Shown here piece after piece: positions 371-39,406 of a DNA stretch of 42,845 bases. This stretch comes from Tubiluchus corallicola (Eukaryota > Animalia > Priapulida), in NCBI GenBank assembly GCA_030141605.1, contig JAQGDQ010001394.1:1-42845 (forward strand), given 5' to 3'. The position numbers and the translations under genes are program-made. The notes under the pieces were generated by a model, which did not search any database, was not told the DNA's origin, and was given only the letters and a program-made list of their open reading frames with translations. Numbering within the stretch: position 1 is the first letter of the stretch; every line of letters begins with the position of its first letter.

Positions 371-2930
371 CTAGCCAAACCCCACAAAAAGAATTTTGTG
401 CACAAATCAACACACAACCCACACCACACCACTCCACCCCATCACACCACACTGCACCACACCTTACCACTCCACCTCATCGCACCACACTGCACCACAC
501 AATACCACCACACCGCACCGCACCACATCATACCACCTACACACCACACCACCCACACCATACCACTGCACCACCCACACACCACACCACACCACCCACA
601 CCATAATACTCCATCACATCACACCGCACAGCACCACACCATAACACCACACTGCACCACACCATACCACTGCACCGCACCACCCACACACCACACCATA
701 CCACTCCACCACATCACACCACACCGCACCACACCATACCACTGCAGCACACCACACCACCCACACACCACACCACACCACCCACACCATAATACTCCAC
801 ACATTACACCACACTGCACCACACCATACCACTGCAGCACACCGCACCACCCACACACCACACCACCCACACCATACGACTCCACCACATCACACCGCAC
901 AGCACCACACCATAACACCACACTGCACCACACCACCCACCCACCTACACACCACACCACCCACACCATACCATTCCACCACATCACACCACACCGCACC
1001 ACACCATACCACCGCAGCACACCGCACCACCCACACACCACACCACCCATACCATACGACTCCACCACATCACCCCACACTGCACCACACCATACCACTG
1101 CACCACACCACACCGCTCCACCCACACACCACACCACACCACCCACACCATAATACTCCACCACATCACACCACACTGCACCACACACCCACCCACCCAC
1201 ACACCACGCCACCCACTCCATACCACACTACCCACACCACACCAGACACACCCTATCCCACATCACATCAAATCCACCACCTCACTTGGTGATCATGATG
1301 TTGATGATGATGATGGTGGCAACGATGACGACACCTATAGCACAAGCACCAACAGCACAGCATTACAACAAAACCATTCCAAACATTTTTCACAAAGTTG
1401 AAACTATGTGCTATAATATAATAAATAGCAAAGGCCCCGCAAAAGATTTTGCGTAAAAAACCACGTATAATCAATAACACGCGAACATCCTACCTAGTCC
1501 TCATTTATTACACAAAGCCCGTAACATCATGCCTACTGTTTGTTTAACTAACGCAAACCCGTAGCAGGCAGCGTTTTGCTGAATTAAAGTTATAAGATTA
1601 TAGACAGAGTACAATGGATGACGTCACAACAATGCCTTTGCGTCAGCAGTTTTCTAAGTGAAAATTGCCGAAAATAGAACTCCTAACTAACTCGTTGATA
1701 CTCCTCTCGGTGGACCTGCCCTAAAATATATCCCACATCATCGTGTTGCCCCGTTCTTCCTCTTTCTGATGAGCTATATATCTCCTTCCGAGAGTCCCAC
1801 CGGGCGCCGCTAGAACGTTTTTCCCGCATGCTGTTTGGTCAAAATTTCGAAAAAATCGCGAGTTGGGTCCGGGAAAACGCCCGTTGCGGGGCGCCCTGGC
1901 CCTCTCGGGAATTCTAAATATGCCTACTACACCCACCGCTGAACGGGCTATCTATCCATACCCAGCACCCCCCTCGGCCCGTTCCCGTTCTCTACATCTC
2001 AGCCGTATAACTTTTGCAATTTTTTGCAAAAAACGGCCGAAAAAGGGCCATTTTTGGAGGTTTTTCGCCCTCCGTTCCTCCCGGTGGGCCCGATTCGAAA
2101 AATAAACCATCAATGGCACGACACTAGATCGAGACCTTTCGTTTGATGTATAGATCGCCGCAAAAGAGTTTGCGTACAAATACACGTGTAATCAATAATA
2201 CGCGAACATCCTACCAAGTCCTCATTTATAACACAAAGCCTGTAACATCCTGCCTACTGTTTGTTTAACTAAGCCTGTAGCAGCTTTTACTGAATTAAAG
2301 TTATAGACAGAGTACAATGGATGACGTCACAACAATGCCTTTGCGTCAGTAGTTTTCTATGCGAAAATTGCCGAAAATAGAACATCTAATTAACTCGCCA
2401 GTACTCCTCTCGGTGGTCCTGTCCTAACATATAGCCCACATCATCGTGTAGCCCCATTCTTCCTCTTTTTGATGAGCCGTATATCTCCTTCCGAGAGTCC
2501 CACCAGGCGCCGCTAAAACGTTTTTTCCGCAGGCTGGTTTGTCAAAATTTCGAAAAAATCGCGAGTTGGGTCCGGGAAAACGCCCGTTGCGGGGCGCCGT
2601 GGCCCTCTCGCGAATTCTAAATATGCCTACTACACCCACCGCTAAACGGGCTATCTATCCATACCCAGCACCACCCTCGGCCCATTCCCGTTCTCTACAT
2701 CTCAGCCGTATAACTTTTGCAAAAAACAGCCGAAAAAGGGCCATTTTTGGCGGTTTTTCGCCTCCCCTTCCTCCCGGTGGGCCCGATTCGAAAAATAAAC
2801 CATCAATGGCACGACACTAGATCGAGACCTTTCGTTTGATGTATAGATCGCCGCAAATGGTGATGTCGTCGGAGCTGTAGCCTCGAATCTTATATATATA
2901 TTAAGATACCAAGAATATTAATATAAGAGA
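371..2930 (-). mobile_element. Non-autonomous Helitron, copy A (contains two ~0.75-kb core units plus a (CACCA)n-rich segment)
   Basis: Minus strand starts TCTCTTATATTAAT at 2930 and ends CACAAAA-TTCT-TTTTGTG hairpin + GGGTTTGG-CTAG at 371, followed by T. No TSD, no RepHel ORF. Confidence 0.8.
410..1260. repeat. Degenerate (CACCA)n-type microsatellite inside Helitron copy A
   Basis: Visible CACCA/CACAC/CATAC iterations; explains the His/Thr/Pro and Val/Trp/Cys ORFs. Confidence 0.9.
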
Positions 2931-4626
2931 CTAGCCAAACCCCACAAAAAGAATTTTGTGCACAAATCAACACACAGCCCACACCACACCACTCACCTCA
3001 TCACACCACACTGCACCACACCATACCACTCCACCTCATCGCACCACACTGCACCACACAATACCACCACACCACACCGCACCACACAATACCACCACAC
3101 CACACCGCACCACACCATACCACCTACACACCACACCACCCACACCATACCACTCCACCACATCACACCACACTGCACCACACCATACCACTGCACCACC
3201 CACACACCACACCACACCACCCACACCATAATACTCCACCACATCACACCGCACAGCACCACACCATAACACCACACCACCCACCCACCTACACACCACA
3301 CCACCCACACCATACCACTCCACCACATCACACCACACTGCACCACACCATACCACTGCAGCACACTGCACCACCCACACACCACACCACACCACCCACA
3401 CCATACGACTCCACCACATCACACCACACTGCACCACACCATACCACTGCACCGCACCACCCACACACCACACCACACCACCCACACCATAATACTCCAC
3501 CACATCACACCGCACTGCACCACAACAACCACCCACCCACCCACACACCACGCCACCCACTCCATACCACACTACCCACACCACACCCCACACACCCTAT
3601 CATCCCACCACACCATCCGTAGCACAACACACAAAACACACCACCACCACACCACATCAAATCCACCACCTCACGTGGTGATCATGATGTTAATGATGAT
3701 GATGATGATGGTGGCAACGATGACGACACCTATAGCACAAGCACCAACAGCACAGCATTACAACAAAACCATTCCAAACATTTTTCACAAAGTTGAAACT
3801 ATGTGCTATAATATAATAAATAGCAAAGGCCCCGCAAAAGATTTTGCGTATAAATACACGTGTAATCAGTAATACGCGAGCATCCTACCTAGTCCACATT
3901 TATAACACAAAGCCCGTAACATCGTGTCTACTGTTTGTTTAACTAACGCAAAGCCTGTAGCTTTTTGCTGAATTAAAGTTATAAGATTACAGCAGAGTAC
4001 AATGGATGACGTCACAACAATGCCTTTGCGTCAGCAGTTTCTTAAGCGAAAATTGCCGAAAATAGAACTCCTAACTAACTCGTCAATACTCCTCTCGGTG
4101 GACCTGCCCTAACATATAGCCCACATCATCGTGTAGCCCTGTTCTTCCTCTTTCTAAAGAGCCGTATATCTCCTTCCGAGAGTCCTACCAGGCGCCGCTA
4201 GAACGTTTTTCCCGCATGCTGTTTGGTCAAAATTTCGAAAAAATCGCGAGTTGGGTCCGGGAAAACGCCCGTTGCGGGGCGCCCTGGCCCTCTCGGGAAT
4301 TCTAAATATGCCTACTACACCCACCGCTGAACGGGCTATCTATCCATACCCAGCACCCCCCTCGGCCCGTTCCCGTTCTCTACATCTCAGCCGTATAACT
4401 TTTGCAAAAAACGGCCGAAAACGGGCCATTTTTGGAGGTTTTTCGCCCCCCCCCCCCCTTTCCTCCCGGTGGGCCCTATTCGAAAAATAAACCATCAATG
4501 GCACGACACTAGATCGAGACCTTTCGTTTGATATATAGATCGCCGCAAATGGTGCCCTCGTCCGGGCTGTAGCCTCGAATCTTATATATATATATATATA
4601 TATACCAAGAATATTAATATAAGAGA
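2931..4626 (-). mobile_element. Non-autonomous Helitron, copy B, joined head-to-tail to copy A
   Basis: Same 5' TCTCTTATATTAAT end (4626, preceded by A on the minus strand) and same hairpin-CTAG 3' end (2931). The junction with copy A reads CTAG|TC. Confidence 0.8.
2970..3660. repeat. Degenerate (CACCA)n-type microsatellite inside Helitron copy B
   Basis: Same low-complexity array as 410-1260, of different length. Confidence 0.9.
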
Positions 4627-4645
4627 TAGTAGATACAATTATACA

Positions 4646-4677
<32 letters not shown>

Positions 4678-4810
4678 GCGTGTGCGTGTGTGTGTGCGTG
4701 TGTGTGTGCGTGTGCGTGTGCGTGTGCGTGTGTGTGTGCGTGCGTGCGTGTGCGTGCATGCGTGCGTGTGCGTGTATGAGGGTGCATGCGTGTGTGTGAG
4801 AGTGTGTGTC
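4646..4810. repeat. (TG)n/(TGCG)n microsatellite
   Basis: Directly visible. Confidence 0.95.
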
Positions 4811-4985
4811 CATGTGTGTTGACGTGTGATCCTGCATGCCTGCGTGTCTCACTCTGTCTGTGTGCGGCTACTTTTTCAATGAATTGCCCTTTAGCCTAGT
4901 TGTTTCAAGCCTGAAGGTCCTCTTAATGTGCATTTTGCAATTAGTTGTAAAACTTTCTGTTCAAGAGTTTATTCATTTCCACACC

Positions 4986-5218
4986 GAACAACATGACGTG
5001 AACAGACATTTTTACAACTGGTAGACGTTCTTTCCAATGAAACGTAACACGTAGAGGAGTACAAACAATATTTATGAACTGTAGAAGCATTACAGTATGA
5101 ACAACATGGCTTGAACAGAAAGTTTTACAACTGGTAGACGTTTGTTCCCATGAAACGTAACACGTAGAAGAGTACAAACAGTATTTATGAACTGTACAAG
5201 CATTACAGTATGAACAAC
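4986..5218. repeat. Tandem duplication, ~113-bp unit, 2 copies
   Basis: GAACAACATG...TTTACAACTGGTAGACGTT...GCATTACAGTATGAACAAC occurs twice, starting near 4986 and 5099. Confidence 0.85.
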
Positions 5219-6189
5219 TAAACTAAAATGCATTTTTCGGTCACACTATACCTATAGACAAGTCGTCAAAACACCTTGTACAGACAGAGAACGCATCCGT
5301 AATGCCAAATACAATATTAAACTAATTACATTCATGTAATTTCCTCCAAACTGCTATAATTGCCTACACTTATCGTGAACAGGTGGGTAAATTGATTTGA
5401 TGACTATTTAGCTTGTACTTGTTTACAACATCTACACACTAATAAGGGAAGCTTTTCCTGGCGTTATAATGGGGTAAATTTATTTTTAAAAAAATCGACG
5501 TTTGGCACCGCAAATGCGTTGGCAGATGGCGGTAGGTGAATTTGGCGATTTTCGGCAAAGCCCGCGTCAACGAGGCGGCCATTGAGGCTACTTCATAGTT
5601 CCACTGCAAGTTCGTGTTATGATTTGACATCCGATCGTCCTTTTCTTGCATTTTATTCTTGAATTTGGTGTTTTCGTTTATCGGTTTTGCTTGTATAATT
5701 AAATCACGCTTATATAGTTAAATCACAGTAGTAAAAAATGTTTTTTTGAAACTCATATTGCTAAAAATGTTAAGAGGTACGCTGAACTTCGAAAGGGTAC
5801 TTGGCTAGTAAAAGGTTAGGAGCCAGTGATCTAGACGTTGTATTGAACTGCAAAATCTAATTCATATTATTGCTGTACTGAAACGTTCAATGATGTAGCT
5901 TATATACAAACGACGCATAGATGTGTTCACATAGATGCAAATGTTCTCTATATTGCGTGATAACTTCAATAGTGGCAATTGTATTTTTCTGATTATAAAT
6001 TTTAACAATCTTAATAACATTGTTTATTGCATTATGACGTTATTGCATTTATGACATTCATTACATTTTTAGTATTAGCAATACATATTTTTAACATCGT
6101 ATCATTAATGTATCAGCACACATTATTAAAAGAAAGGGCAAATCACTTTGCATGTTGGGTTTATTATACTGTTATCAGTGAAACTTAGC

Positions 6190-6915: not shown

Positions 6916-7749
6916 AAAGTTAAAACTTCGCCTGCAACTGGAGGCACATTTATGTAAATATGTATTTTAAAGTAAAAGATTAATCATCATCATCATCGTA
7001 CATTACTCTGCTTAACCCAGCTGTAATATTCACTTCTGAATGTGTAATTATGGTAAATGCACTCAACATATTGCGGTACAGGGCTGACATTTAATGCTGG
7101 CAAGAGAATACAATAGGCCTCTCAGGTGTGCATGTGAACGTGGCTTTATCTAGCACGGACTCGTATTCTGACTTTGTGTTAGTAAAAACCACTAGTCACG
7201 TGCACACCTGAGCTTATAAAAAGGGAAGGTCTGCTGTAGAACCTTATCAGTGGCCGATGTCTTTCATTGCAGCTCTGTTCATCCATTCTACTAGGTAACC
7301 TGGTTGTTCTTGCTCAAAAGCGTAATTGTCATTTCGAGTTTATTACTCGAATTTTGTTCTGGGTGAGGCGTTGATTGACTTAATTAAGACATGCAGCAAG
7401 GTCTGGGGCGCAGTGTCATCCGTCCTGCCTCCACTATGCGCAGACGGCAGTCCAATATTAGCAAGTATAATGTACTCGTATAATGTAACAACAATAATAT
7501 AGTTACTGAAGTTAAGGCTTGTTCTAACATTTTATCCTTAGCACCAGGTATGTGCGCAATCTACTTGTATCTAAATCAACTAATTCCAATGTAAACACTG
7601 GTGGTGTCACGCTCGGGCGCGAAAGTCGTAGAGAGTGCACTGCAGTGTGCACGTGCTGGGAAGTTTTCTTTCTTCAAAATCTCATTCTACCTGTTGGAGA
7701 CATTGAGGCATTAACATTTATTAGAGTATTTCACACACTCCTATCTGCA

Positions 7750-8850
7750 GCTAACAGCTTAAGTTCTTTTATTCCTGAAGATAGATTTGGTTGAAGTTGT
7801 TGAACTTCTTTATTTATCCTAGCTATCCAAGTTGTTTTTGGTTCGCCAGGTGTTTTTTGCAAAGTTTTAAGGCTTCCTTTACGACGATTTTTACGGTACT
7901 TTACTTGATAATCCTAGAAGATGTCCTGGCCATCTTAACCTTCGAATCTTGACTTTGGAACTCCGAGGGATTTCTTTCGTTCCAATACATAAATCTCAAT
8001 TTTAGATTATGTGCGGCCATCTTATCTTCAAAACTCCTTAGGAGACTTTTATGAAATGTGTCAATCTGCTTTGCTTGAGCAATTATTTAACCCAATGTTT
8101 CACTGTTGCACATAAATGTGCTGGTAACGTGTTGGTGATACATTCTTGTGTTGAAGAAAAGCATGCATTGCTTGTTACTTTCTAATTTTAATATCATCTT
8201 TGATGTTTAGAACAGTGCCCATACACATACTTGTACTTTTTCCAAGTCTTACTACCAATAACCTCTTGCAATAATATATTCCTCGGCTTTGGACTGGTTT
8301 ACTTGAACGTTTCTTTTCTCTGTTTTTTTTGGAAAATCCCTTTTATTGTGTTAGTTTGAAAATTAATCCAACACTAATCTAGCTGATGTCATCAGCACAT
8401 TGTTTGTTCAATAAGGAATGGTTCATAGGATTCCAAAGCAGGATAGGAGTTGTCCAGAACATGTTGTGGAAGGTTATGCCAAACAGTGGTATCGTAACCA
8501 TGATCATCATTTGGAGGAGTTTGGATCTTATATGCTATATGCTGATCATGCATATAGTCAAGATTTTCCATAACGAAAGTGTAATTGGTCTTAAATATGC
8601 TACTGGTCCTTTCTTCTTTTTAGGTTTTGAAATAGGCACTAATATCCCTACTAAACTTCTTTTTGGATAGTTTCCTGTTTCAGCAAAAGTATTCAGTAAA
8701 TTTGATATTCCAGTACTAATGATCTCTGGCCCATGGCTTAGCTGTTCTGCAGCAAGACTGCCTATACCCGGCTTTTCCATTCTTTAAAGAGTTCATTACC
8801 TTTAAAACATCTTTGGGCCATTGGTTTCATCTCAGGAATGTTTTCTGCAT
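7750..8850 (-). mobile_element. Decayed RTE-like non-LTR retrotransposon reverse-transcriptase fragment
   Basis: Minus-strand translations give GILVPISKPKKKKGPVAYLRPITL (RT N-terminal motif), QCADDIS (YADD-like) and KIRWPHII...RRLRWPGHLL (RTE-type C-terminal motifs), interrupted by stops and frameshifts. Confidence 0.75.
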
Positions 8851-21532: not shown

Positions 21533-22080
21533 CATGTAAAATGACATAACTGAAGAGAAGATTAACGGTAAGAATTGTTACTATTACAACAGCATGGGTC
21601 TCAACGTGTCGTCAAGTGTGCACAAATGCATTTCTGTTAGGTTCAGTTAACCTTTGACCTTTTCACGATCATGTAAAATTACATAACTGAAGAGAAAATT
21701 AACGGTAAGAATTGTTACTATTACAACAGCACGGGTCTCAAAGTGTCGTCAAGTGTACACAAATGCATTTCTGTTAGGTTCAGTTAACCTTTGACCTTTT
21801 CACGATCATGTAAAATAACATAACTGAAGAGAAAATTAACGGTAAGAATTGTTACTATTACAACAGCACGGGTCTCAAAATGTCGTCAAGCGTACACAAA
21901 TGCATTTCTGTTAGGTTCAGTTAACCTTTGACCTTTTCGCGATCATGTAAAATTACATAACTGAAGAGAAGATTAACGGTAAGAATTGTTACTATTACAA
22001 CAGCACGGGTCTCAAAGTGTCGTCAAGTGTACACAAATGCATTTCTGTTAGGTTCAGTTAACCTTTGACCTTTTCACAAT
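21533..22080. repeat. 137-bp tandem repeat, 4 copies, in BBS2 intron 2
   Basis: Unit starts CATGTAAAA at 21533, 21670, 21807 and 21944. Confidence 0.95.
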
Positions 22081-22133
22081 CATCATCAATTGCTGGAAGT
22101 GTGAAAAGGCTTATTAGTCAAAAGGAAAATTAC

Positions 22134-23418: not shown

Positions 23419-23539
23419 AAATGGAAAAAAGCTGCTAATGTAACAGCAAAAGCTTATGGTTGATACCAATTTCAGCTGCAAAAAGCCGATAAATGAAAAA
23501 GTGGTAAATGGCATCACCAGTCTAGAAAAAATTTATTAC

Positions 23540-25303
23540 CTGCAAGTGTTGTATGTTCAAGAATGTGCACATTGCTTGTATAATCTCCCCGGCTAAATCC
23601 ATGTCATCAGTATGAATGATCATTTTACCACCCATTTGATATTCGAAACCTAAACCTTCTTTATTGCGAATCGACACGAAATTAACGCGGAGTGTCCCGG
23701 AACTTTCCAGATCTTCGTTGAGAAGAAAGTTCTGGTTTATCCACATGATCACTCGTTGAACGCGCTCGTTGATTTGAAACGTGACCGACCCCGTACAGGT
23801 CAACTGCGTCGACGAGTCCAAGAGCGAGTAACTGGCAAATCGACACAACTGTCTGGTGAGTTCAAACACGTGGTATTGAGAAGAACTACGACTGCCGACG
23901 AACGCTTTGATGTGCAGATCTACTTGAGTGTCCTTCGACGGCAATAAGGGAACGATTACAGAGTTGGACAGTCGACCAGAGAACGGATGGACAACATGGC
24001 TCTCACCTTCAAAAATCCCCTCAGCAAATATGAGCACGGCTCGAATGATACAGTCATTCGATGTCGATATCGACAGTTGCACGTGAGGTTTGAGCAACGC
24101 CGGATCTATGACACCCTCCTCACTTACTCCCATCGACACGAGCAATGTGGTCTGCAGTTGTGTATTTGCCGGTATGATTCCCACGTCGGATCCATCTATC
24201 GCTAGCAGTCCGCTTGGACGTACGATAGCAGCAGCTTTGGCATTTTCTTCATAATTAGCAATCTCTAGAAGAAGATTCTGCCTTCGCTGACTGAGGTCAC
24301 GTATCGTCTCTTGTTCTACGTTTAAATCCATCAAGTTCCCCTTCATCTCCGGAGCAGAAGGCAAATAACCCTTGACGTCACCCTCTACGGAGCAACAAAT
24401 TAGCTGCGTGGATCCATCCATGCGGTAATCACCCTCCACTATTCCGGCTGCCGAACAGGTAAAATTATCTTTGAAAACGACTTCTCCCGTTCGATCACTT
24501 CTTGCATCCACTTTTCCGTTGTTCCAACCCGTGATGAGCTCTGGCACACCATCAGCATCTAAGTCAAATCCATGTATAGCGACAGCTTGGTTTTTCGACT
24601 TGATTCTCCAATTACGCGCCGATTTGTCATAAACTCCAACTGTACCGTTCGACAGAGCATACCCAAATCTGCTTCCCTGCAGCGTGCAAAGATCTGTGAT
24701 GGCATCCGTTTCTGTCACTTCAGATATTAAAACTTCATTTTCAAAAACTCGCAAGTCAAAATCCTCTGAACCCACTAGCAACTGGTTCACTCCATTACCC
24801 GAATAGTCGCACAAAGCAAGGGAACAAATATTATCACCTGTGACCGTCCAATAAACGTCTTCACCTCGAAAATCATACCCTTGAATAGAACAATTGCCGC
24901 CAAGTATGGCTAACGGCATTTCCAAGTTACCCAAGTTACCAATGACTATAGAATTTACCCCATCCAAAACGTCTTTGTGAAAAATATCAGACTCGTTCTC
25001 CACATCATATGCCAAAACGTTAGATTGTGTGCCTACAATGAGAGTATCTTTTCCCGACTGATGACTTAATCGACCAGCTGCCAAAGCAGTAATACCCTGA
25101 TTTATGTTTAGAAAAGAAAGATCGGCTGTAGCTTCACTATACGCTGCGCTGGAACGTTTTGTAACATGTGGATGATGTATTATTACTCTGCCGCCTATAG
25201 TTGCTGCAGCTAAGCTAGGATGCACACCATCATACTTTCCTAACGTCACCATACGCGGAAGAATCCGATGCTTTAGCTTAAGACTAAATACCGGCACTAA
25301 CAT
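23540..25303 (-). CDS. BBS2: Bardet-Biedl syndrome 2 protein, coding exon 1 (588 codons)
   Basis: MLVPVFSLKLKHRILPRMVTLGKYDG..., WTVTGDN, LLVGSEDFDLRVF, FGYALSNGTVGVY, WRIKSKN, DGVPELITGW, HVFELTRQLCRF are BBS2 hallmarks; donor CAG|GTAATA; total 727 aa. Confidence 0.96.
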
Positions 25304-26758
25304 TGTGTTGCAATTAAGACGCAATTAAATTTTACTAAAATATTTCGTAAAACATAAACAGTTTTTGAACACTAAAATGTTTAACATTATTTTGTCGGTA
25401 AAAAATGTTTACCATCACGACAGAACCAACGCAAAGGCGTGAATGATGATAAGAGTGTTGCGCAAACAAGATTTAAGGACTTCCCATGGTACTTTTACCA
25501 AACAAACCTCCCTTTGAGAACGTAATCACTGCAGGCATTAATTATTGGAAATTATCAAAAAAAAAACAATATAATAATTAAACATCCAAGATAATTATCA
25601 CGTTAAGATATACGTATATAATTACTATTTACAGAAGAGTAGAACTAGTTATATCCGCTGCAGCTGTAAGAGAAATTTGGGATAAAAAAATTTCACTAAT
25701 GGCAGCCAATTGACAAACCACTAGTCAATAGTTATCAGAGAAATTAATAATTTTTCACACAAAAAAGATGAAAATCTGGTGATTGGCGAAGCTTGACGAT
25801 GTATTCATTATCAACACTTTACTAACACTGCCTTTTCTATCTTTCCGAATCACAACGCTGGCTACATTAAGAGTATATTTACTTTAACTTCACAAATGTT
25901 AGTGAAGTACATTAATACTAATATGCCTGTGTTGTCTTCATTCCACTAATCCTGTCTATTCCACTAATTAATTTATAATCATTCTTTTCTACTTTTTATA
26001 ATAAAAAAGTTTTGATAAAAAAGTAAAATTTTTATGATAAATATTACGAAATGGTTATGCATTACGAAGTACTTATGCTACCAATCGTATTAATAAATGT
26101 CAAACAGAACAATATGCAAAAGACGTCTAAAATTTACTTTTATATACATTCACTAATGCCAAATTTTTATATCGCAACACAGCTCTAGACACAGTTTTAC
26201 AATGTCAACAGTTTTACATTCAGGGGATGCCTTGCAACATAGTTCTTCAACCAGACTTTATGATAAGTAAAAAATAGGCACTAGTATGACTAAATATTTA
26301 TCAATGATTCTTACCGAAACCACTAAATGTGGCGTCAATACACAAAAATGTTTTATATATCATTACGTAAAAATACTGAGAAGCCTCTCACTACTAATAG
26401 GTCAGTCCGAAGATAAGCACAAGAAATTGCTTCACTAAAGAACTGCAACAATAATTATCTCAGACGACATTACCTGATGGTATTAGGGCTGAAGAACAAA
26501 TTCTTAAGCCGCAAAAAGTGAGCACACGTGGTCATTCAATTATAACAGCGTGAACAATTATTTAACCTCAGAGTATATGGCCATTTCTTGCTTGTTCATC
26601 CTTCAAAAATGTTTGAATATCTATTCGGTAGAATATGAGGTTAATTTCAAGTGTAATCGCTCGTTATTCGTTATGAAACATACGAAATAGACATGAAATT
26701 TCACGAAGTAAAAATAAATGACACAAAAAAAACAAAAAAAAAAGCATTTTTGTCTATA

Positions 26759-27655: not shown

Positions 27656-27841
27656 CTTAATCATATAACTCTGAGCTAAATCTTACAGTAGTTTACAGCA
27701 ATTATTACAAGATTTCTGTGCACTACGCATCATCAGTCGTTTTTGCACTTAATCATATAACTCTGAGCTAAATCTTACAGTAGTTTACAGCAGTTATTAC
27801 ATGATTTCTGTGGTGCACTACTCATCATCAGTCGTTTTTGC
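27656..27841. repeat. ~92-bp tandem duplication spanning the La stop codon
   Basis: CTTAATCATATAACTCTGAGCTAAATC...CATCATCAGTCGTTTTTGC starts at both 27656 and 27748. Confidence 0.9.
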
Positions 27842-28903
27842 GCATTTCTCAGCTGTGCGCTTGTCACCATTCGTTTCTTCGGCAGCGCGTTTCACTCCGC
27901 CGCTTGGCGCATCCTCACTTTCATCGCTTTCCGAGTCGCTCTCATCGCTGTCACCAAACTTCGTCTTCTTGTTTTGTGCCTTGCCGGGCGAACCTCTTTT
28001 GCCACGATGGCGGTCACGATTCTGCCTTCCTCCGCGTGACCGTTGGCCATATTTGCCCCTCTGTTTCTTCTTCTGTCTGCTCTCGGCTTGAGCTTCGAAT
28101 CGTTTCTTCCAGTAAGCGATTTCTTCCTCTCCTTCGAGAACTCTACATTCCAACATGGCTCCGTTCAATTCTACTTTGCCTTCGCCGGCCGCTCGTAATT
28201 TTGTCAGCACCTCAGCAGCGCTGACGTCGTCAACAAATCGAACCCAACCTTCCTCATCCCCTTTCGAGAAATCGATGAAACTCACTTTCCCGTAATCTTC
28301 CAGCAAATCTCTAATGGTTTCACGCGTGGTATCGGACGAAAAACCGGACATGTGAATCACAATACCCTTCTGCATCTTCTCCACCACCTGCTGCTTTTCA
28401 ATCAGCTTTTTTTCCTGCTCAAGTTTCATGGTTATCTCAGCTTTCTTCTGAGCTCGTTCCACTTGTTTTTTTGTATAATAAGCGTCCTTGAATAATCGCA
28501 ACAAGTCGCTTTCCAAATATTTCACATCCGGTTCGTTAACAAACTTATCAGCATCTTCTTTCTTCTCGAATGTCATAAACACTGAACCCTTGAACTTTTT
28601 TTCAATATTTCTACGCAACGTAATCTGTTCGGTTGGACCAAAATCACTCAAGAATGTTTGAACGTCTTCTAGTGTAGCATCTAGCGGAAAACCTTTGGCG
28701 TACACGCTTCTTGCTTTCAGACTGTCTCTCCACTCTTTTGTGTTTTCGGGTAACGGAATGTCGGGAGAGCGACGTATCTTGGTCTTGTCTTCGCTTACCA
28801 CAACCAGCTGCTTGGGAGAGTTTGTCAGAGCTGAAACAATCACAGCCTTATCCTCCGTTAAAGCACGAAGCCTGTTGAACTTCAACATCACATCCAAGGA
28901 AAC
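27818..28903 (-). CDS. SSB: La autoantigen, coding exon 2 (rest of La motif, RRM1, RRM2, basic/acidic tail)
   Basis: CTGTAG| VSLDVMLKFNRL..., RSVYAKGFP, FKGSVFMTF (RNP1), second RRM, KKTKF and GVKR tail motifs. Confidence 0.94.
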   Translation of the reverse strand, partial: VSLDVMLKFNRLRALTEDKAVIVSALTNSPKQLVVVSEDKTKIRRSPDIPLPENTKEWRDSLKARSVYAKGFPLDATLEDVQTFLSDFGPTEQITLRRNIEKKFKGSVFMTFEKKEDADKFVNEPDVKYLESDLLRLFKDAYYTKKQVERAQKKAEITMKLEQEKKLIEKQQVVEKMQKGIVIHMSGFSSDTTRETIRDLLEDYGKVSFIDFSKGDEEGWVRFVDDVSAAEVLTKLRAAGEGKVELNGAMLECRVLEGEEEIAYWKKRFEAQAESRQKKKQRGKYGQRSRGGRQNRDRHRGKRGSPGKAQNKKTKFGDSDESDSESDESEDAPSGGVKRAAEETNGDKRTAEKCAKTTDDE

Positions 28904-30230: not shown

Positions 30231-30380
30231 ACTAAACGGTGTTGCTGCTGACACAAGCTCTGAGCGCAGTAAGACAGCAGGCAATTTATACAAGATTTCA
30301 AGACAATTTTTAATATTATGCCGGCAAAGGGTTTTCTTGTGCTTTATAAAATCCTAATGCAAGATTAAATTTCTCCTTCA

Positions 30381-31636
30381 ACACGGGGCAGTAATCACTT
30401 TAACCCATTTAACAGCTAAGAGTAGGAATGCACAACATCAACACAGGACAGTAATCACTTTAACCCATTTAACAGCTAAGAGTAGGAATGCACAACATCA
30501 ACACGGGACAGTAATCACTTTAACCCATTTAACAGCTAAGAGTAGGAATGCACAACATCAACACGGGACAGTAATCACTTTAACCCATTTAACAGCTAAG
30601 AGTAGGAATGCACAACATCAACACAGGACAGTAATCACTTTAACCCATTTAATAGCTAAGAGTAGGAATGCACAACATCAACACGGGACAGTAATCACTT
30701 TAACCCATTTAACAGCTAAGAGTAGGAATGCACAACATCAACACGGGACAGTAATCACTTTAACCCATTTAACAGCTAAGAGTAGGAATGCACAACATCA
30801 ACACAGGACAGTAATCACTTTAACCCATTTAACAGCTAAGAGTAGGAATGCACAACATCAACACATGACAGTAATCACTTTAACCCATTTAACAGCTAAG
30901 AGTAGGAATGCACAACATCAACACATGACAGTAATCACTATAACCCATTTAACAGCTAAGAGTAGGAATGCACAACATCAACACAGGACAGTAATCACTT
31001 TAACCCATTTAACAGCTAAGAGTAGGAATGCACAACATCAACACAGGACAGTAATCACTTTAACCCATTTAATAGCTAAGAGTAGGAATGCACAACATCA
31101 ACACGGGACAGTAATCACTTTAACCCATTTAACAGCTAAGAGTAGGAATGCACAACATCAACACAGGACAGTAATCACTTTAACCCATTTAACAGCTAAG
31201 AGTAGGAATGCACAACATCAACACGGGACAGTAATCACTTTAACCCATTTAACAGCTAAGAGTAGGAATGCACAACATCAACACATGACAGTAATCACTT
31301 TAACCCATTTAACAGCTAAGAGTAGGAATGCACAACATCAACACGGGACAGTAATCACTTTAACCCATTTAACAGCTAAGAGTAGGAATGCACAACATCA
31401 ACACGGGACAGTAATCACTTTAACCCATTTAACAGCTAAGAGTAGGAATGCACAACATCAACATGACAGTAATCACTTTAACCCATTTAACAGCTAAGAG
31501 TAGGAATGCACAACATCAACACGGGACAGTAATCACTTTAACCCATTTAACAGCTAAGAGTAGGAATGCACAACATCAACACATGACAGTAATCACTTTA
31601 ACCCATTTAACAGCTAAGAGTAGGAATGCACAACAT
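30381..31636. repeat. 60-bp minisatellite, ~21 near-identical copies, in the La intron
   Basis: Unit ACAC(G/A)(G/T)GACAGTAATCACTTTAACCCATTTAACAGCTAAGAGTAGGAATGCACAACATCA; one 58-bp unit at 31461. Confidence 0.97.
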
Positions 31637-32464: not shown

Positions 32465-33779
32465 CAGGGCACTTTATTTATGACTTTTCTTGCAAAATAG
32501 TCATAAATAGTCATAAATAAGATTTCAAATTTGTCATAAATAACGAAAGAAAAATAATCATTTCCCGATGAATGGAACAAAAAATTCAGTACAGAAAACT
32601 GTTTCCACCGTCTCTCTCTCTCTCTCTCTCCCACACACACAGGCAGTCCATAAGAAGCTTGCGCGTGACTGTTTGGTGGACTAACACAGTAACTGAGACT
32701 GTCTAACTGATGCGTTTATCTGTCATTAACTCGTCTAGAAGCAACCTAAATAATAAAAAGTAAATGAGCGCGTTACCGCGAAAAAATAAATAGGCACCGA
32801 CAGAATCGTTGTCGTTCCATCGAAAATTTGAATTAAAGACAGCTTACCTATTTTAATGTCCTAAAGTTCTGCCGCCTCAAACCTACGCTCTGCACAATAA
32901 CAGAAATCTACACTTCTAATTCTTTTCTTTGCACGTTCATTTCAGTGCCTTTCTCATCCTAGCGGCGTTAGGGGTGAGCATTCTCTACCAGAAAGCGAAT
33001 TCGAATCGAACCGAATTTGTGACTTTCGAATTCGAATCGAACCGAACTTCGATGCTTACCCCTAAGCGGCGTAAGTCAATGGCTTGGGTGTAGGTTTTAG
33101 CTCGAGTTTGCCGCAAGCGTTTCCCGTGCCTTACTGCCTCATCCTCAAGAAATAAGAATAATGCCGTCTGCTAGAATTTGAGCATATTTTATCTTTGGGA
33201 GAATTTGTTGCTTCATTGTCATTAAAATTTAACTGTTTTTCTTGTTTAGTTATTTTGCTTAATGTAATTTTAATTAGAAAACATACGTGACGGTTCCCTA
33301 GAAAGATGTAATAGCCAATAGTATTTTCCAACATTAAATTTAAAATCGATATTTAAAAAATACATTATTTACTTGTACTAATTGTGGCTACGAATTGTGA
33401 CTGTACGAATTAATTAATAGATTGATTTTTATGAGCAGTAATTTTATAGGTCATCCTAAACAAATTAAAACCGATACTATAATTATTATAAACACGATCA
33501 CGGATTTCAGTCTGGAGGGATGCCTGCATGCAAAACAATACGAGAAACTTCAGGCCTTGGAATGATGAAAGTAGACATTTTTATTACATTTTAATGTAAT
33601 GAAGAACGAAGAAAGGCAAAATACAAGATTCTGATTAAAAATATGTATTTCTTTTAGCTCAGGATGGCATTTTTGGTCAAAATTTGACACGTCATAAATA
33701 GTCATAAATAAAATCTGAAATTAGTATTAAATAAGCTATTTATGCAATTTATGACTAAAGTCATAAATAAAGTGCCCTG
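32465..33779. mobile_element. Non-autonomous hAT-type element
   Basis: TIRs CAGGGCACTTTATTTATGACT / AGTCATAAATAAAGTGCCCTG; perfect 8-bp TSD TGTATTTG; subterminal GTCATAAATA repeats. Confidence 0.9.
32969..33064. mobile_element. 96-bp hAT-type mini-MITE nested in the preceding element
   Basis: TIRs TAGGGGTGAGCAT / ATGCTTACCCCTA; perfect 8-bp TSD AGCGGCGT. Confidence 0.88.
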
Positions 33780-35273
33780 TGTATTTGGTTGCGATTAATT
33801 AACTTACCAAGGTAATTATTCGAATACTAGGAACAATTGATAACTTTCATAGGCAAGAAAATTCAAGATATTTTAGACAGTAAATTAAAATAAAATTGAG
33901 TCTAATCAATCGTCTCGTTTTCCTTTAATGCGCACGTGCCTTCAAGAAAGCATAAAACAACTGATAATATTAGACTATAGTTGCAGTCTTTGTAATACAA
34001 CATACATACAGTTGTATTAAATAGCAGACATATCACCAAAAACAATTAAACTTCACTATCTGTACATAAAGATAATGTTTAAACGGGCTTGCGAGATGTA
34101 AAAGGACATGATATTTCGTCCTCTGTGACAGGAGCTATTTTAATGTTGAATAATGTTGCCAATCTGATAACATAAACATAACAAGAGTTTACAATGTCAA
34201 CTGTGATTGGTCAACCGGGGAACAAATAGCAGCTTTCTATTGATCAGGCAAACACGGTCATTATCTACAACGGTACCATGTCAGTCACTCCCTCTTACAA
34301 TACAGCCTGAACTACAGTAAAAAGGCCCAACACCTATCCTTTTCACACCTTCCCACCTAGCCCTAATAAGGTAGCACTTTTTTCTCGCGACGCAATCGTC
34401 ACAGGGCCATTTCCAATGTTAAAAACTTCGCATATAAAAACTAAGGTACCAGCAACGTCAAACAAAGGTTGAATGTAATGCGAAGTAAAAGTACCTTACT
34501 TGTGCACATCCAAAAACACTAAAGTAAAACGATATATATAAGTAAAATATGTGTGGGTATTTGGCGAATATATGAAATCATGCAACACCACAATCATATA
34601 TGACGGCGACCCCGCATAAGGAAAAGCTCGGAAGAAGAAGATATGAAATCATGCAACAAGTTTGCACGCGAATGTACACAGCCTGCAACTCAACTCACAT
34701 AAAAAGCTATTATAAATTATCTAAACTAAAGCTTGCATTGCACCCAAAATTTACCGGTTTGACGATGTTGTGCCCACGCTTTTGTCGGCTGGCTTACGCA
34801 ATAAGCGGCAACTTTGGACTCTTTCCAAAGCGAAAACTTGTCTTATATTTTACCAAACGTCGAAAATTTCTTGTGGGCACAACGAACAATACGTTGTGGG
34901 AAAATGTCTAACAAGTTATTACTTGCTTAATAATAAATTTGGTAGCCTATTGTTCCAACTGTAGTTTGTTGCTGCCCAAAATTTTGTTCAAATAGCATTA
35001 GAGCGCAAAAGATCCATGTTCAATTTTGCATAAAATTAATCTGGTGGTTAGCCATTTCCTGTGCAATATCAAGTTTGAAGATGTTGGCTGTTTTTAATCA
35101 AACATTCAGATAGTTTAACAGTCTGAGACAATAATTGCCAATATCCATAAAAATGCTTTATTTACCCAAGAAAACAGCATAGGGCATTAACTTTTAATGA
35201 ACTTACTTGAAACGCATAGTGCCACAAAAAGTTCTTGACATAAAAATTTGACTATTACAAACATAAAGAATAC

Positions 35274-35580
35274 CTTACCTTAGACCTTAGTCCTTCCTGC
35301 GCATTGATGCACATTGGGCAGACAGCATTTTCCACTGAGTTCTATCGGCGGCTTCGTTCTCTACGTTTTCCCAACGTATGTTGACAGCTCGAAGGTCTCG
35401 GCTTTGACCTAGCATCGTCATAACATGGGTCGAACTTTCTGCTTTGTGCCGATTTGTGTCAGTAGATTTGTTTCTGTCTGTTTCTGTAGCAATTGAGAAC
35501 TTTTACAGGATAGGGGTGCTAACCCTAAGCCCAACCCTCCTCCTCTCTCAACCGGGCTTGGGACCGGCTATGGCGGAGTT
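35274..35580 (-). mobile_element. 307-bp non-autonomous RTE-derived retroelement headed by a twister ribozyme
   Basis: 15-bp TSD AAACATAAAGAATAC (35259-35273, 35581-35595). 3' half encodes an RTE-like ORF end SRDLRAVNIRWENVENEAADRTQWKMLSAQCASMRRKD*, followed by a TAAGG-repeat tail. Confidence 0.88.
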
Positions 35581-35581
35581 A
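35529..35581 (-). ncRNA. Twister self-cleaving ribozyme (P1 type)
   Basis: Minus strand U|AA-CUCC-GCC-AUA-G-CCGG-UCCCAAGC-CCGG-UUGAGAGA-GGAG-GAGGG-UUGGGC. P2 CUCC/GGAG, P4 CCGG/CCGG, L4 UCCCAAGC and GAGGG match the twister consensus. Confidence 0.85.
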
Positions 35582-36094
35582 AACATAAAGAATACGTTTT
35601 AGTAAATCCATTTGCTGTTTTGCCGCCAGCTATTCATTGTAAGAATTAACGATATTAACAAAATAACGATATTATGTAAAATCTGACATTTCTCAATGTC
35701 AAGCAGGTGATCAGGTGCATCAACGAACTTATTCTCAAAAAGCAATTTTTTATGATCATGTATGTTGTCATTGTTGTGTAACATTTTAATAGTTTAATTA
35801 CCATTAAAAGTACTTCTTGCATATAGACGTAAATAAATTACATAAATAAATAAATAAAGTCTCTTAATCGTACCTGATGAGTCCAACGAATAAATGGTTG
35901 AGTACATAACTATTACATTGATAAAAATCCGCTTTTCTATTCACATTCCCGATGCTAAGTTTCATTAGCTGATGGTTTTCCAAGTAGGGACTCTCACAGA
36001 AATCATTGTCAAATTTCCAGTAACCACATTTTAGCTGCTTTGGCGTGATGGATTTTACATATTACCATTTATCACTAGCTTCCACTGGCATTAG

Positions 36095-36440
36095 CAATAT
36101 TCTCTACCAGAAATCGAATTCGAATCAAATCAAATTTGTGGCTTTCGAATTCAAATCAAACCGAATTCCAATATTTCGAATTGAGTTTAAAACTTTTCGA
36201 ATAAGCTTTTGAACCCTCAGTAAAAGTGGTTTTCTAAAGGTCGTGCATACACCCTATTATTCGATTTTGTTCTGCAATATGAAAACACTAATAATTAGTT
36301 TAAAAATTACGTTTAGAAATTGTTACTAAATTGTGCTAATTGCATGATTTTTAACATGTTTTAATGACAAAAAAACATATGTGGTTGAAGTGCTGAATTA
36401 TACGAATATGTAATTTCAGGTCCGAATCGAATTCGAACAT
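36095..36440 (+). mobile_element. Partial hAT-type MITE of the GAATCGAA family
   Basis: ATTCTCTACCAGAAA.CGAATTCGAATC is shared with ~32980-33010; body is shared with 14275-14500. Confidence 0.65.
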
Positions 36441-39246: not shown

Positions 39247-39406
39247 ATGAGTAAAACAGATACGGCCCGAGATAGGGGCTTGAAGACTCCGAACAAGCCT
39301 CACGTCAACAGACCACCGGCTGGTTCTACCGGGGTGCTGATGGTCGGACCAAACTTCCGCGTAGGAAAAAAGATCGGTTGTGGTAACTTTGGTGAATTGC
39401 GATTAG
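39247..39406 (+). CDS. CSNK1G: Casein kinase I gamma (gilgamesh-like), coding exon 1
   Basis: MSKTD...[27 protein letters not shown](G), a CK1-gamma signature; acceptor TTCCTAG at 39211, donor G|GTACG. Confidence 0.93.

What the first reader, a model, noticed from the sequence alone, without database searches (positions are those of the whole stretch)
35259..35595. Miniature RTE-derived retroelement that starts exactly at a twister ribozyme cleavage site
Seen: a 307-bp insert with a perfect 15-bp TSD. On the minus strand it begins AACUCCGCCAUAGCCGGUCCCAAGCCCGG...GGAGGAGGG and ends with about 38 codons of an RTE-like ORF C-terminus plus a TAAGG tail. Known: twister ribozymes cleave at U|A in this context, and twisters occur at the 5' ends of some RTE-clade retrotransposons. 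Inference: this is a SINE-like bipartite element with no pol III promoter; it is released from host read-through transcripts by self-cleavage and copied by an RTE partner. The first element nucleotide being the cleavage-site A is what a full-length copy of the 3' cleavage product should look like. The flank restores U-1, but the host bases (UAUGUU) cannot pair with the P1 3' strand (UUGGGC).
Basis: partly seen in the sequence, partly recalled or inferred. Interest (0 to 1): 0.8.

Follow-up and report, generated by a model that had tools for sequence, protein, structure and literature searches.

The report
Young gutted RTE with twister head
This 307-base insertion is the two ends of a longer RTE-type jumping gene joined together, and it starts at the base where a "twister" self-cutting RNA is predicted to cut, but it is likely a one-off or rare shortened copy of a known kind of element rather than a new spreading family.

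Summary
There is a 307-bp insert with an exact 15-bp duplication, and a second sample carries the empty site. Rfam twister-P1 matches at E 2e-8, below its gathering score, and the element starts at the cleavage-site A.

The insert is the 5' 185 nt and the 3' 125 nt of a young RTE-like LINE, joined in frame at a 3-nt overlap. The "SINE-like family" reading is not supported: about as much depth continues from this head into the full ORF as covers the head. No listed contig spans the junction, so it rests on the assembly alone and its copy number is unmeasured.

The missing P1 is probably no obstacle. Papers report that P1 is dispensable, and here its would-be 3' strand is one arm of a covarying hairpin (7 of 10 pairs). 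Cleavage was not tested.

Twister-headed RTEs (Perere-3) and bipartite RTE derivatives are published. This scan has already noted twister-headed deleted RTEs in other genomes.

The parts
35274..35580 (-). Whole element, 307 bp, internally deleted RTE-like LINE
   Evidence: (empty site in X4 skips 322)
35581..35595 (.). Target-site duplication, copy at the element's 5' side; 35581 supplies U-1 of the predicted cleavage site
35259..35273 (.). Target-site duplication, copy at the element's 3' side
35535..35580 (-). Twister core without P1 and without P3: A+1 at 35580, P2 35578-35575/35543-35540, pseudoknot T2 35574-35573/35557-35556, P4 35567-35564/35555-35552, pseudoknot T1 35562-35560/35537-35535; G at 35539 sits where the general-base G is expected (position recalled)
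   Evidence: domain layout as in Table 1 of PMC8501958
35506..35533 (-). Conserved hairpin directly after the core (arms 35533-35523 and 35515-35506); its 5' arm is the would-be P1 3' strand
   Evidence: only about 0.2 pairing probability in this copy folded alone
35422..35505 (-). Rest of the LINE 5' UTR, identical to the high-depth partner contig of X4; holds a lone B-box-like 9-mer at 35435-35427
35396..35421 (-). First 8 codons of the LINE ORF (ATG at 35421)
   Evidence: partner contigs continue into ORF sequence past 35396
35396..35398 (-). Deletion junction: 3-nt overlap shared by the 5' and 3' parts, in frame
   Evidence: loose ends before 35396 (X1, X3, X4) and behind 35398 (X1, X2); no listed contig spans it
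35290..35398 (-). Last 36 codons of the LINE ORF
35274..35289 (-). Stop codon and short TAAG(G)-type tail
   Evidence: full-length relatives L018 and L036 end in TAAG repeats

Best explanation
It is a recent insertion made of the first 185 and last 125 bases of an RTE-like LINE, likely a single or rare copy whose middle was likely lost while it was being copied in, and whose first base was likely set by self-cleavage of the parent's twister ribozyme. Steps: (1) shown: a longer element with the same head and the same 3' end exists in these samples in roughly 10-20 head-bearing copies; (2) inferred from Perere-3: its transcript starts upstream in host DNA and the twister cuts it to a 5'-AA end; (3) inferred: the LINE protein primes reverse transcription at a staggered nick on the TAAG tail, giving the 15-bp duplication; (4) inferred: the enzyme jumps about 2.85 kb along the RNA at a 3-nt overlap and then copies to the cleaved end; (5) predicted: the new copy keeps an intact P1-less twister core and both LINE ends, so it could be mobilised in trans if transcribed, but there is no sign that it has spread.
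For: Empty site with one repeat copy in X4. Partner: X4 contig of 427 nt, depth 128.6 against flank 6.1, matches 35581-35396 with 0 differences and runs on into other sequence; by hand translation this continues the ORF N-terminus of P0001 almost letter for letter, and the loose end behind 35398 reads as the stretch just before the C-terminal piece. X1: the head-to-ORF contig is unbroken across 35396 at depth 2186; 5' UTR contig 2045; flanks 183-195 (ratios). 5' ends: summed depth falls from 6980 (35570-35578) to 183 (35588 onward), and the five listed contigs that reach the head end at 35579-35583 apart from this locus's own flank contig (18 pieces not shown). A second, different deletion product is in X1: a 115-nt contig, depth 112, joining 35501 to 35321 with 8 letters between. 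In metagenome contigs the same head precedes a LINE-like ORF in 17 of 46 distinct heads with at least 500 nt downstream; 4 distinct TSD-flanked short copies were seen among 79 heads, and L030 and L065 are bipartite with different junctions. PMC8501958 shows cleavage of such heads and TSDs next to the cleavage site; PMC5786205 and PMC7245038 state that RTEs often give bipartite derivatives.
Against: The junction is not seen in any listed contig (no depth at 35372-35389); assembled contigs drop rare paths, so this neither confirms it nor counts it. Contig depth is only a rough copy measure, and X1-X3 may be the window's own source sample. No genome was available for a direct count. Nothing distinguishes a jump during copying from a later deletion in DNA. 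The Rfam score is below the family threshold, and the region folds no better than shuffles (z -0.16 to -0.84). The host flank folds into a hairpin that includes U-1, and PMC11662667 reports lower cleavage with an upstream P0 hairpin (0.40 against 0.85). PMC8501958 calls P1-less cleavage 'inefficient', whereas PMC5408937 says almost wild-type.
Confidence: 0.55

Rival explanations
1. It is a copy of an already mobile short family (SIDE- or SINE-like): a deleted master copy is transcribed by read-through, freed by the twister and copied in trans by the RTE protein.
For: It keeps both LINE ends and an intact twister core. It is full length at the 5' end, which a short RNA reaches easily, whereas 3' ends of related elements are far deeper than heads (74,000-120,000 summed against 2,000-6,000). 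R2 SIDEs work this way (PMC3414825). The junction path could have been pruned from the contigs even at a few copies.
Against: Depth into the ORF (2186) is not lower than depth over the shared 5' UTR (2045) in X1, and the X4 partner contig is unbroken across the junction. No second copy in the window. No look-alike in this scan's notes. The head has 0 differences from the partner over 186 nt, so there is no separate lineage yet.
Confidence: 0.2
2. A full-length LINE inserted here first and later lost its middle by microhomology-mediated DNA repair; the short form never existed as an RNA template.
For: 3-nt overlap at the junction. PMC3414825 (Discussion) favours recombination or repair for the origin of R2 SIDEs.
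Against: The insertion looks very young (0 differences from the partner over 186 nt, exact TSD, empty in X4), leaving little time. A second deletion product with extra letters at its joint exists, which fits error-prone copying as well.
Confidence: 0.2
3. The short form is an assembly collapse of a full-length copy.
For: No listed contig spans the junction; X1 holds 0.95 of the sampled words, not all.
Against: A 3-nt overlap is too short for an assembler to join on (inference). Both element-flank junctions are present in X1 and X2 contigs with 0 differences. Similar deletion products occur as contigs.
Confidence: 0.05

Closest known systems
Perere-3 (RTE clade, Schistosoma mansoni) with T-variant twister ribozymes; PMC8501958 (read: abstract, introduction, sections 17, 18 part 1 of 2, 19, 21, 22, term passages; supplements not read)
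   Same: Same core letters in P2, L2, P4, L4, L1 and the same UUGG after GAGGG (its Table 1); TSD directly next to the cleavage-site AA; ATG about 150 nt downstream (here 160); short GTAA/TAAG-type tail; single APE+RT ORF in the relatives.
   Different: The S. mansoni examples have a P3 stem, here replaced by 5 nt. This copy lacks about 2.85 kb of ORF. The paper models the TSD as the P1 5' strand that tunes activity; here the P1 3' strand is part of a covarying downstream hairpin. Activity was measured there and not here.
Bipartite ORF-absent non-autonomous RTE LINEs (RTESINE1/2, WALLSI3, Bov-A unit); PMC5786205 (passages and section 23), PMC7245038 (passages)
   Same: Only the 5' and 3' parts of an RTE, made by internal deletion, keeping the LINE's 5' end, with no small-RNA head.
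   Different: Those are multi-copy families; a family is not shown here. The passages read name 5' ribozymes in general (citing HDV-like ones), not twister.
R2 SIDEs (short internally deleted elements) of Drosophila; PMC3414825 (abstract and Discussion)
   Same: 5' self-cleaving ribozyme joined to the 3' end of the parent; no promoter of its own; would use the parent's protein in trans.
   Different: HDV-like ribozyme, fixed 28S rDNA target with guaranteed co-transcription, old lineages with diverged ribozymes. Here: twister, dispersed target, no divergence from the parent.
Mini-twister lacking P1; PMC5408937 (passages), PMC11662667 (abstract, sections 32 part 1 of 2, 33, 38)
   Same: P2, P4 and both pseudoknots are intact; P1 and P3 are absent, which these papers describe as tolerated.
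   Different: The mini-twister is an engineered truncation; here the lack of P1 is natural and context-dependent, and an upstream host hairpin may lower activity.

Membership tests
Twister ribozyme, type P1 (RF03160) | Covariance-model match at the family's gathering score | tested here: not met
   43.5 bits against 67.2; E 2.1e-8, whole model covered. The loss comes from absent P3 and unpaired P1.
Twister ribozyme, type P1 (RF03160) | P2, P4, pseudoknots T1 and T2 and the conserved L1/L4 bases | tested here: met
   All 13 core pairs are Watson-Crick in the window copy. Covariation in the core cannot be judged, since the search pattern fixed most of these columns.
Twister ribozyme, type P1 (RF03160) | P1 stem closing the cleavage loop | tested here: not met
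   Host bases do not pair with 35534-35529 (probability 0.0). Reported as dispensable.
Twister ribozyme, type P1 (RF03160) | Site-specific self-cleavage 5' of the first A | not testable with these tools
   Needs an in vitro assay or raw RNA reads.
RTE-clade LINE (Perere-3-like parent) | Single ORF of about 1000 aa with APE and RT and no C-terminal zinc knuckle | tested here: met
   Met for the relatives, not for the unsequenced parent itself: P0001 997 aa, PF03372 + PF00078; 120 relatives, median 999 aa, 0 of 120 with a CCHC-like motif in the last 150 aa. Both ORF ends of the element match them.
RTE-clade LINE (Perere-3-like parent) | Short tandem-repeat 3' tail and variable TSD | tested here: met
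   TAAG(G)-type tail and 15-bp TSD; TAAG repeats in L018 and L036.
RTE-clade LINE (Perere-3-like parent) | Placement in the RTE clade on an RT tree with named references | not tested
   No hit carries an RTE family name; the clade label rests on architecture and likeness to Perere-3 as described in PMC8501958.
Bipartite non-autonomous LINE / SIDE | Only 5' and 3' ends of an autonomous LINE, joined by internal deletion | tested here: met
Bipartite non-autonomous LINE / SIDE | Several copies sharing the junction at different sites (mobilised in trans) | tested here: inconclusive
   Depths allow at most a few copies; the junction is not listed in contigs; no genome held.
SINE (pol III, small-RNA-derived head) | tRNA/7SL/5S-derived head with A and B boxes | tested here: not met
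   No tRNA; no A-box at 1 mismatch (recalled consensus); one B-box-like 9-mer at +146, a pattern found 13 times in the window against 9.7 expected.

The most novel reading that the evidence does not exclude
The twister heads of this LINE lineage are natural P1-less mini-twisters by design: a conserved hairpin takes up the strand that would form P1, so cleavage does not depend on pairing with the target site, contrary to the Perere-3 model in which the TSD builds P1 and sets each copy's activity. Any internally deleted copy is then a ready-made promoter-less parasite, and this 307-bp insertion is a newborn one caught before it has spread.
Probability: 0.3. Interest if true: 0.55.

Novelty: new member of a known kind. 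Interest (0 to 1): 0.3.

Why it matters
As one insertion it matters little: twister-headed RTEs and bipartite RTE derivatives are both published. It is a clean, very young example (exact TSD, empty allele elsewhere, head identical to the parent, defined 3-nt junction) of how such derivatives are born, and it bears on Kojima's open question of why RTE, Ingi and R2, all with 5' ribozymes, are the clades that yield bipartite elements. The more reusable point is the covarying hairpin behind the ribozyme: it makes a direct test possible of whether target-site bases control copy activity through P1 or are irrelevant.

Tried and rejected
No genome is held for this window, so no direct copy count. Rfam at gathering score: 0 hits; the mir-392 hit at E 9.5 is taken as chance. 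No other copy in the window by blastn. Single-strand folds are no better than shuffles, as expected for a pseudoknotted RNA, and were not used as support. No RNA holder listed among sequencing runs. The search for related loci with P0001 in metagenome contigs: 62 candidate stretches, none confirmed. The bacterial promoter scan is not applicable. My first count of heads followed by an ORF (22 of 53) was inflated by hits to the translated head itself and by duplicates, and was replaced by 17 of 46. The P1-register count was mis-anchored for the window copy and is not used. TSD-like repeats in L068 and L070 (tandem units) and L022 (9 bp) were left out of the count of short copies. BBS2 search did not resolve the host beyond an animal: best hits 62% to an annelid, a brittle star, another annelid and a priapulid. 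Paper searches found no paper describing a twister-headed internally deleted RTE or the downstream hairpin; the library lacks most subscription journals, and the supplements of PMC8501958 (2060 T-variants from many taxa; 18.6% of S. mansoni heads with no domain downstream) and PMC11662667 were not read and may hold such cases. PMC7761336 mentions unpublished work on truncated twisters at RTE 5' ends. Look-ups of this scan's notes by place, by sequence and for the hairpin gave nothing.

Full report
Observation. The + strand carries an exact 15-bp direct repeat at 35259-35273 and 35581-35595 around a 307-bp insert. By base composition such a match within 400 bp of a given place has a chance of about 1e-6. 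On the minus strand the insert begins with the AA of a twister cleavage loop, and the U before it is the last base of the repeat. Rfam gives no hit at gathering score in the window. On 501 bases around the site twister-P1 matches over its whole length at 43.5 bits, E 2.1e-8, against a gathering score of 67.2. P2, P4 and both pseudoknots are fully paired; P3 is replaced by 5 nt and P1 cannot form.

It is a real insertion. No genome is held, so I used public runs. Four of six listed runs hold part of the stretch; X1-X3 are one sample, possibly the source of the window, and X4 is another sample and study. One X4 contig runs from 35063 to 35265 and resumes at 35588, skipping 322 bases, which is the element plus one repeat copy. 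Its flanks differ from the window by about 7%, while the element's first 186 bases are identical to a high-depth X4 contig. The parent family is therefore young relative to the split of the two flanks (inference).

Anatomy. The 71-aa frame at the 3' end found one relative among 14 candidates, P0001, a 997-aa APE+RT protein. A 44-codon frame starts at 35421. Its last 37 residues match the end of P0001 at 54% and its first 9 match the start at 7 of 9. Several relatives of P0001 begin and end alike, and a profile of their C-termini scores the element at E 3.6e-9. Contigs leave the window sequence before 35396 in X1, X3 and X4 and behind 35398 in X1 and X2 (283 loose-end rows not shown). Translated by hand, the first loose end continues the ORF N-terminus and the second is the stretch just upstream of the C-terminal piece. 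So the element is 185 nt of 5' end and 125 nt of 3' end sharing 3 nt, in frame. If the parent is the size of P0001, about 2.85 kb is missing (inference).

Family or one-off. In X1 the 5' UTR contig (35411-35549) has depth 2045, the contig that crosses 35396 into the ORF has 2186, and the flank contigs have 183-195. In X4 one 427-nt contig at 128.6 runs from 35581 into the ORF against a flank of 6.1. Taken roughly, 10-20 copies bear this head and nearly all continue into the ORF (ratios). No listed contig spans the junction (18 pieces not shown). Such contigs drop rare paths, so this is compatible with a low-copy junction but leaves it resting on the assembly. X1 also holds a 115-nt contig at depth 112 joining a slightly diverged head at 35501 to a 3' end at 35321 with 8 letters between, a second and different deletion product. 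I read this as repeated, independent deletion rather than one amplified family.

5' ends. Summed X1 depth falls from 6980 at 35570-35578 to 183 from 35588 on. Listed contigs end at 35579 (two), 35583 (X1), 35581 and 35580 (X4), apart from this locus's own flank contig. These ends belong mostly to full-length copies. A flanking T is common but not fixed: one X4 contig has A at -1, and among 20 metagenome heads followed by an ORF the -1 base is T 9, G 4, A 4, C 3. PMC8501958 (section 19) reports cleavage with any of the four bases.

Elsewhere. The head pattern matched 89 stretches of metagenome contigs; 88 loci were held, with 93 matches and 79 distinct heads. Of 46 distinct heads with at least 500 nt downstream, 17 are followed by a LINE-like ORF. 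Four distinct short copies have TSDs: L030 (572 bp), L065/L073/L078 (502 bp, one site), L039 (106 bp), L077 (107 bp). L030 and L065 consist of about 400 nt of head and about 100 nt matching the 3' ends of full-length L028 and L033 at 79-83%, with different junctions. Twister-headed deleted copies are therefore not peculiar to this genome.

The P1 question. PMC11662667 (sections 32, 38) found twisters essentially impervious to P1 defects, and PMC5408937 (passages) reports near wild-type cleavage without P1. PMC8501958 (section 17) calls that cleavage inefficient. I aligned the window head with 18 heads chosen by eye for a similar continuation. The strand after GAGGG is the 5' arm of a 10-pair hairpin: 87.8% of cells paired, 7 of 10 pairs with changes on both sides, 0 of 500 shuffles reaching the covariation score, 43-61% paired when slid by 1-3 columns. 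RNAalifold predicts 7 of these pairs independently. Caveats: the rows were selected, the structure was read from them, relatedness inflates such scores, and the window copy alone gives these pairs a probability of only about 0.2. Against activity of this copy, the duplicated host bases fold into a hairpin that includes U-1, and an upstream P0 hairpin lowered mean cleavage from 0.85 to 0.40 in PMC11662667 (section 33).

Host context. The host is an animal not resolved further. A La-protein gene lies on the minus strand with coding sequence from about 32025 leftward and a donor-like site at 32849; a kinase gene (casein kinase 1-like, recalled motif) starts on the plus strand near 39247 after an acceptor-like site. 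The element is thus between the two, possibly antisense in a first intron of the kinase gene. No same-strand transcript over it is shown. No tRNA and no A-box were found, only a lone B-box-like 9-mer that the parent shares.

Mechanism. Most likely the parent LINE RNA was trimmed at its 5' end by the twister, reverse transcription was primed at the target on the TAAG tail, the enzyme skipped the middle at a 3-nt overlap and copied to the cleaved end (0.55). Rivals are a copy of an already mobile short family (0.2), deletion in DNA after a full-length insertion (0.2) and assembly collapse (0.05). The structure, the empty site and the partner are shown; cleavage, the jump and any mobilisation in trans are inferred.

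Comparison. It works like Perere-3 at its 5' end (PMC8501958) and is built like the bipartite RTE derivatives of PMC5786205 and PMC7245038 and the R2 SIDEs of PMC3414825. PMC7761336 (passages) already mentions truncated but competent twisters at RTE 5' ends; PMC6765202 (passages) reviews SIDEs. Five searches found no paper on a twister-headed deleted RTE or on the hairpin, within a partial library and without supplements. This scan's own notes list three twister-headed deleted RTE elements in other genomes; I did not test them. Verdict: new member of a known kind, interest 0.3.

Noticed in passing
window 34570-34658 (+): A second small insertion: exact 18-bp direct repeat around 53 bp that ends in GAA repeats; looks like the 5'-truncated 3' end of another LINE (RTE-like ending, recalled).
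   Followed up: partly
run X1, 115-nt contig laid at window 35569-35501 and 35321 onward: A second, shorter deletion product of a related subfamily: twister head plus hairpin joined to the last ~48 nt by 8 extra letters, depth 112.
   Followed up: partly
L059:1-3529 (-): The same twister head is followed after 180 nt by an ORF of at least 1116 aa whose RT is only 27% like P0001 and whose far end looks like a restriction-like endonuclease motif (recalled): possibly a twister on a non-RTE LINE.
   Followed up: no
L046, L068, L070: Twister heads in close pairs or tandem units (273 or 91 bp apart) with no LINE ORF downstream and with flanks shared between copies; may be retrozyme-like repeats.
   Followed up: no
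L030, L065, L039, L077: TSD-flanked twister-headed short elements of 572, 502, 106 and 107 bp; the first two are bipartite LINE derivatives with GAA tails.
   Followed up: partly
window 23522-25324 (-) and 27818-28903 (-): BBS2 has 600 codons and the La gene 361 codons in single open frames, unusually few introns for an animal; intron-poor genes or retrocopies.
   Followed up: no
window 36077-36200, 32980-33046: A high-copy GAATTC-rich interspersed repeat (summed depth over 100,000 in X1), with related pieces at two or more places in the window.
   Followed up: no
window 7737-8768 (-): Weak matches to P0001 and to the C-terminal profile (E 0.008-2.9), likely an old decayed LINE.
   Followed up: no
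window 30378-31636, 21533-22083, 411-1252, 2971-3674: Tandem arrays: 21 copies of 60 bp (between the two La coding pieces), 4 copies of 137 bp, and two CACAC-rich arrays inside a larger duplicated block.
   Followed up: no
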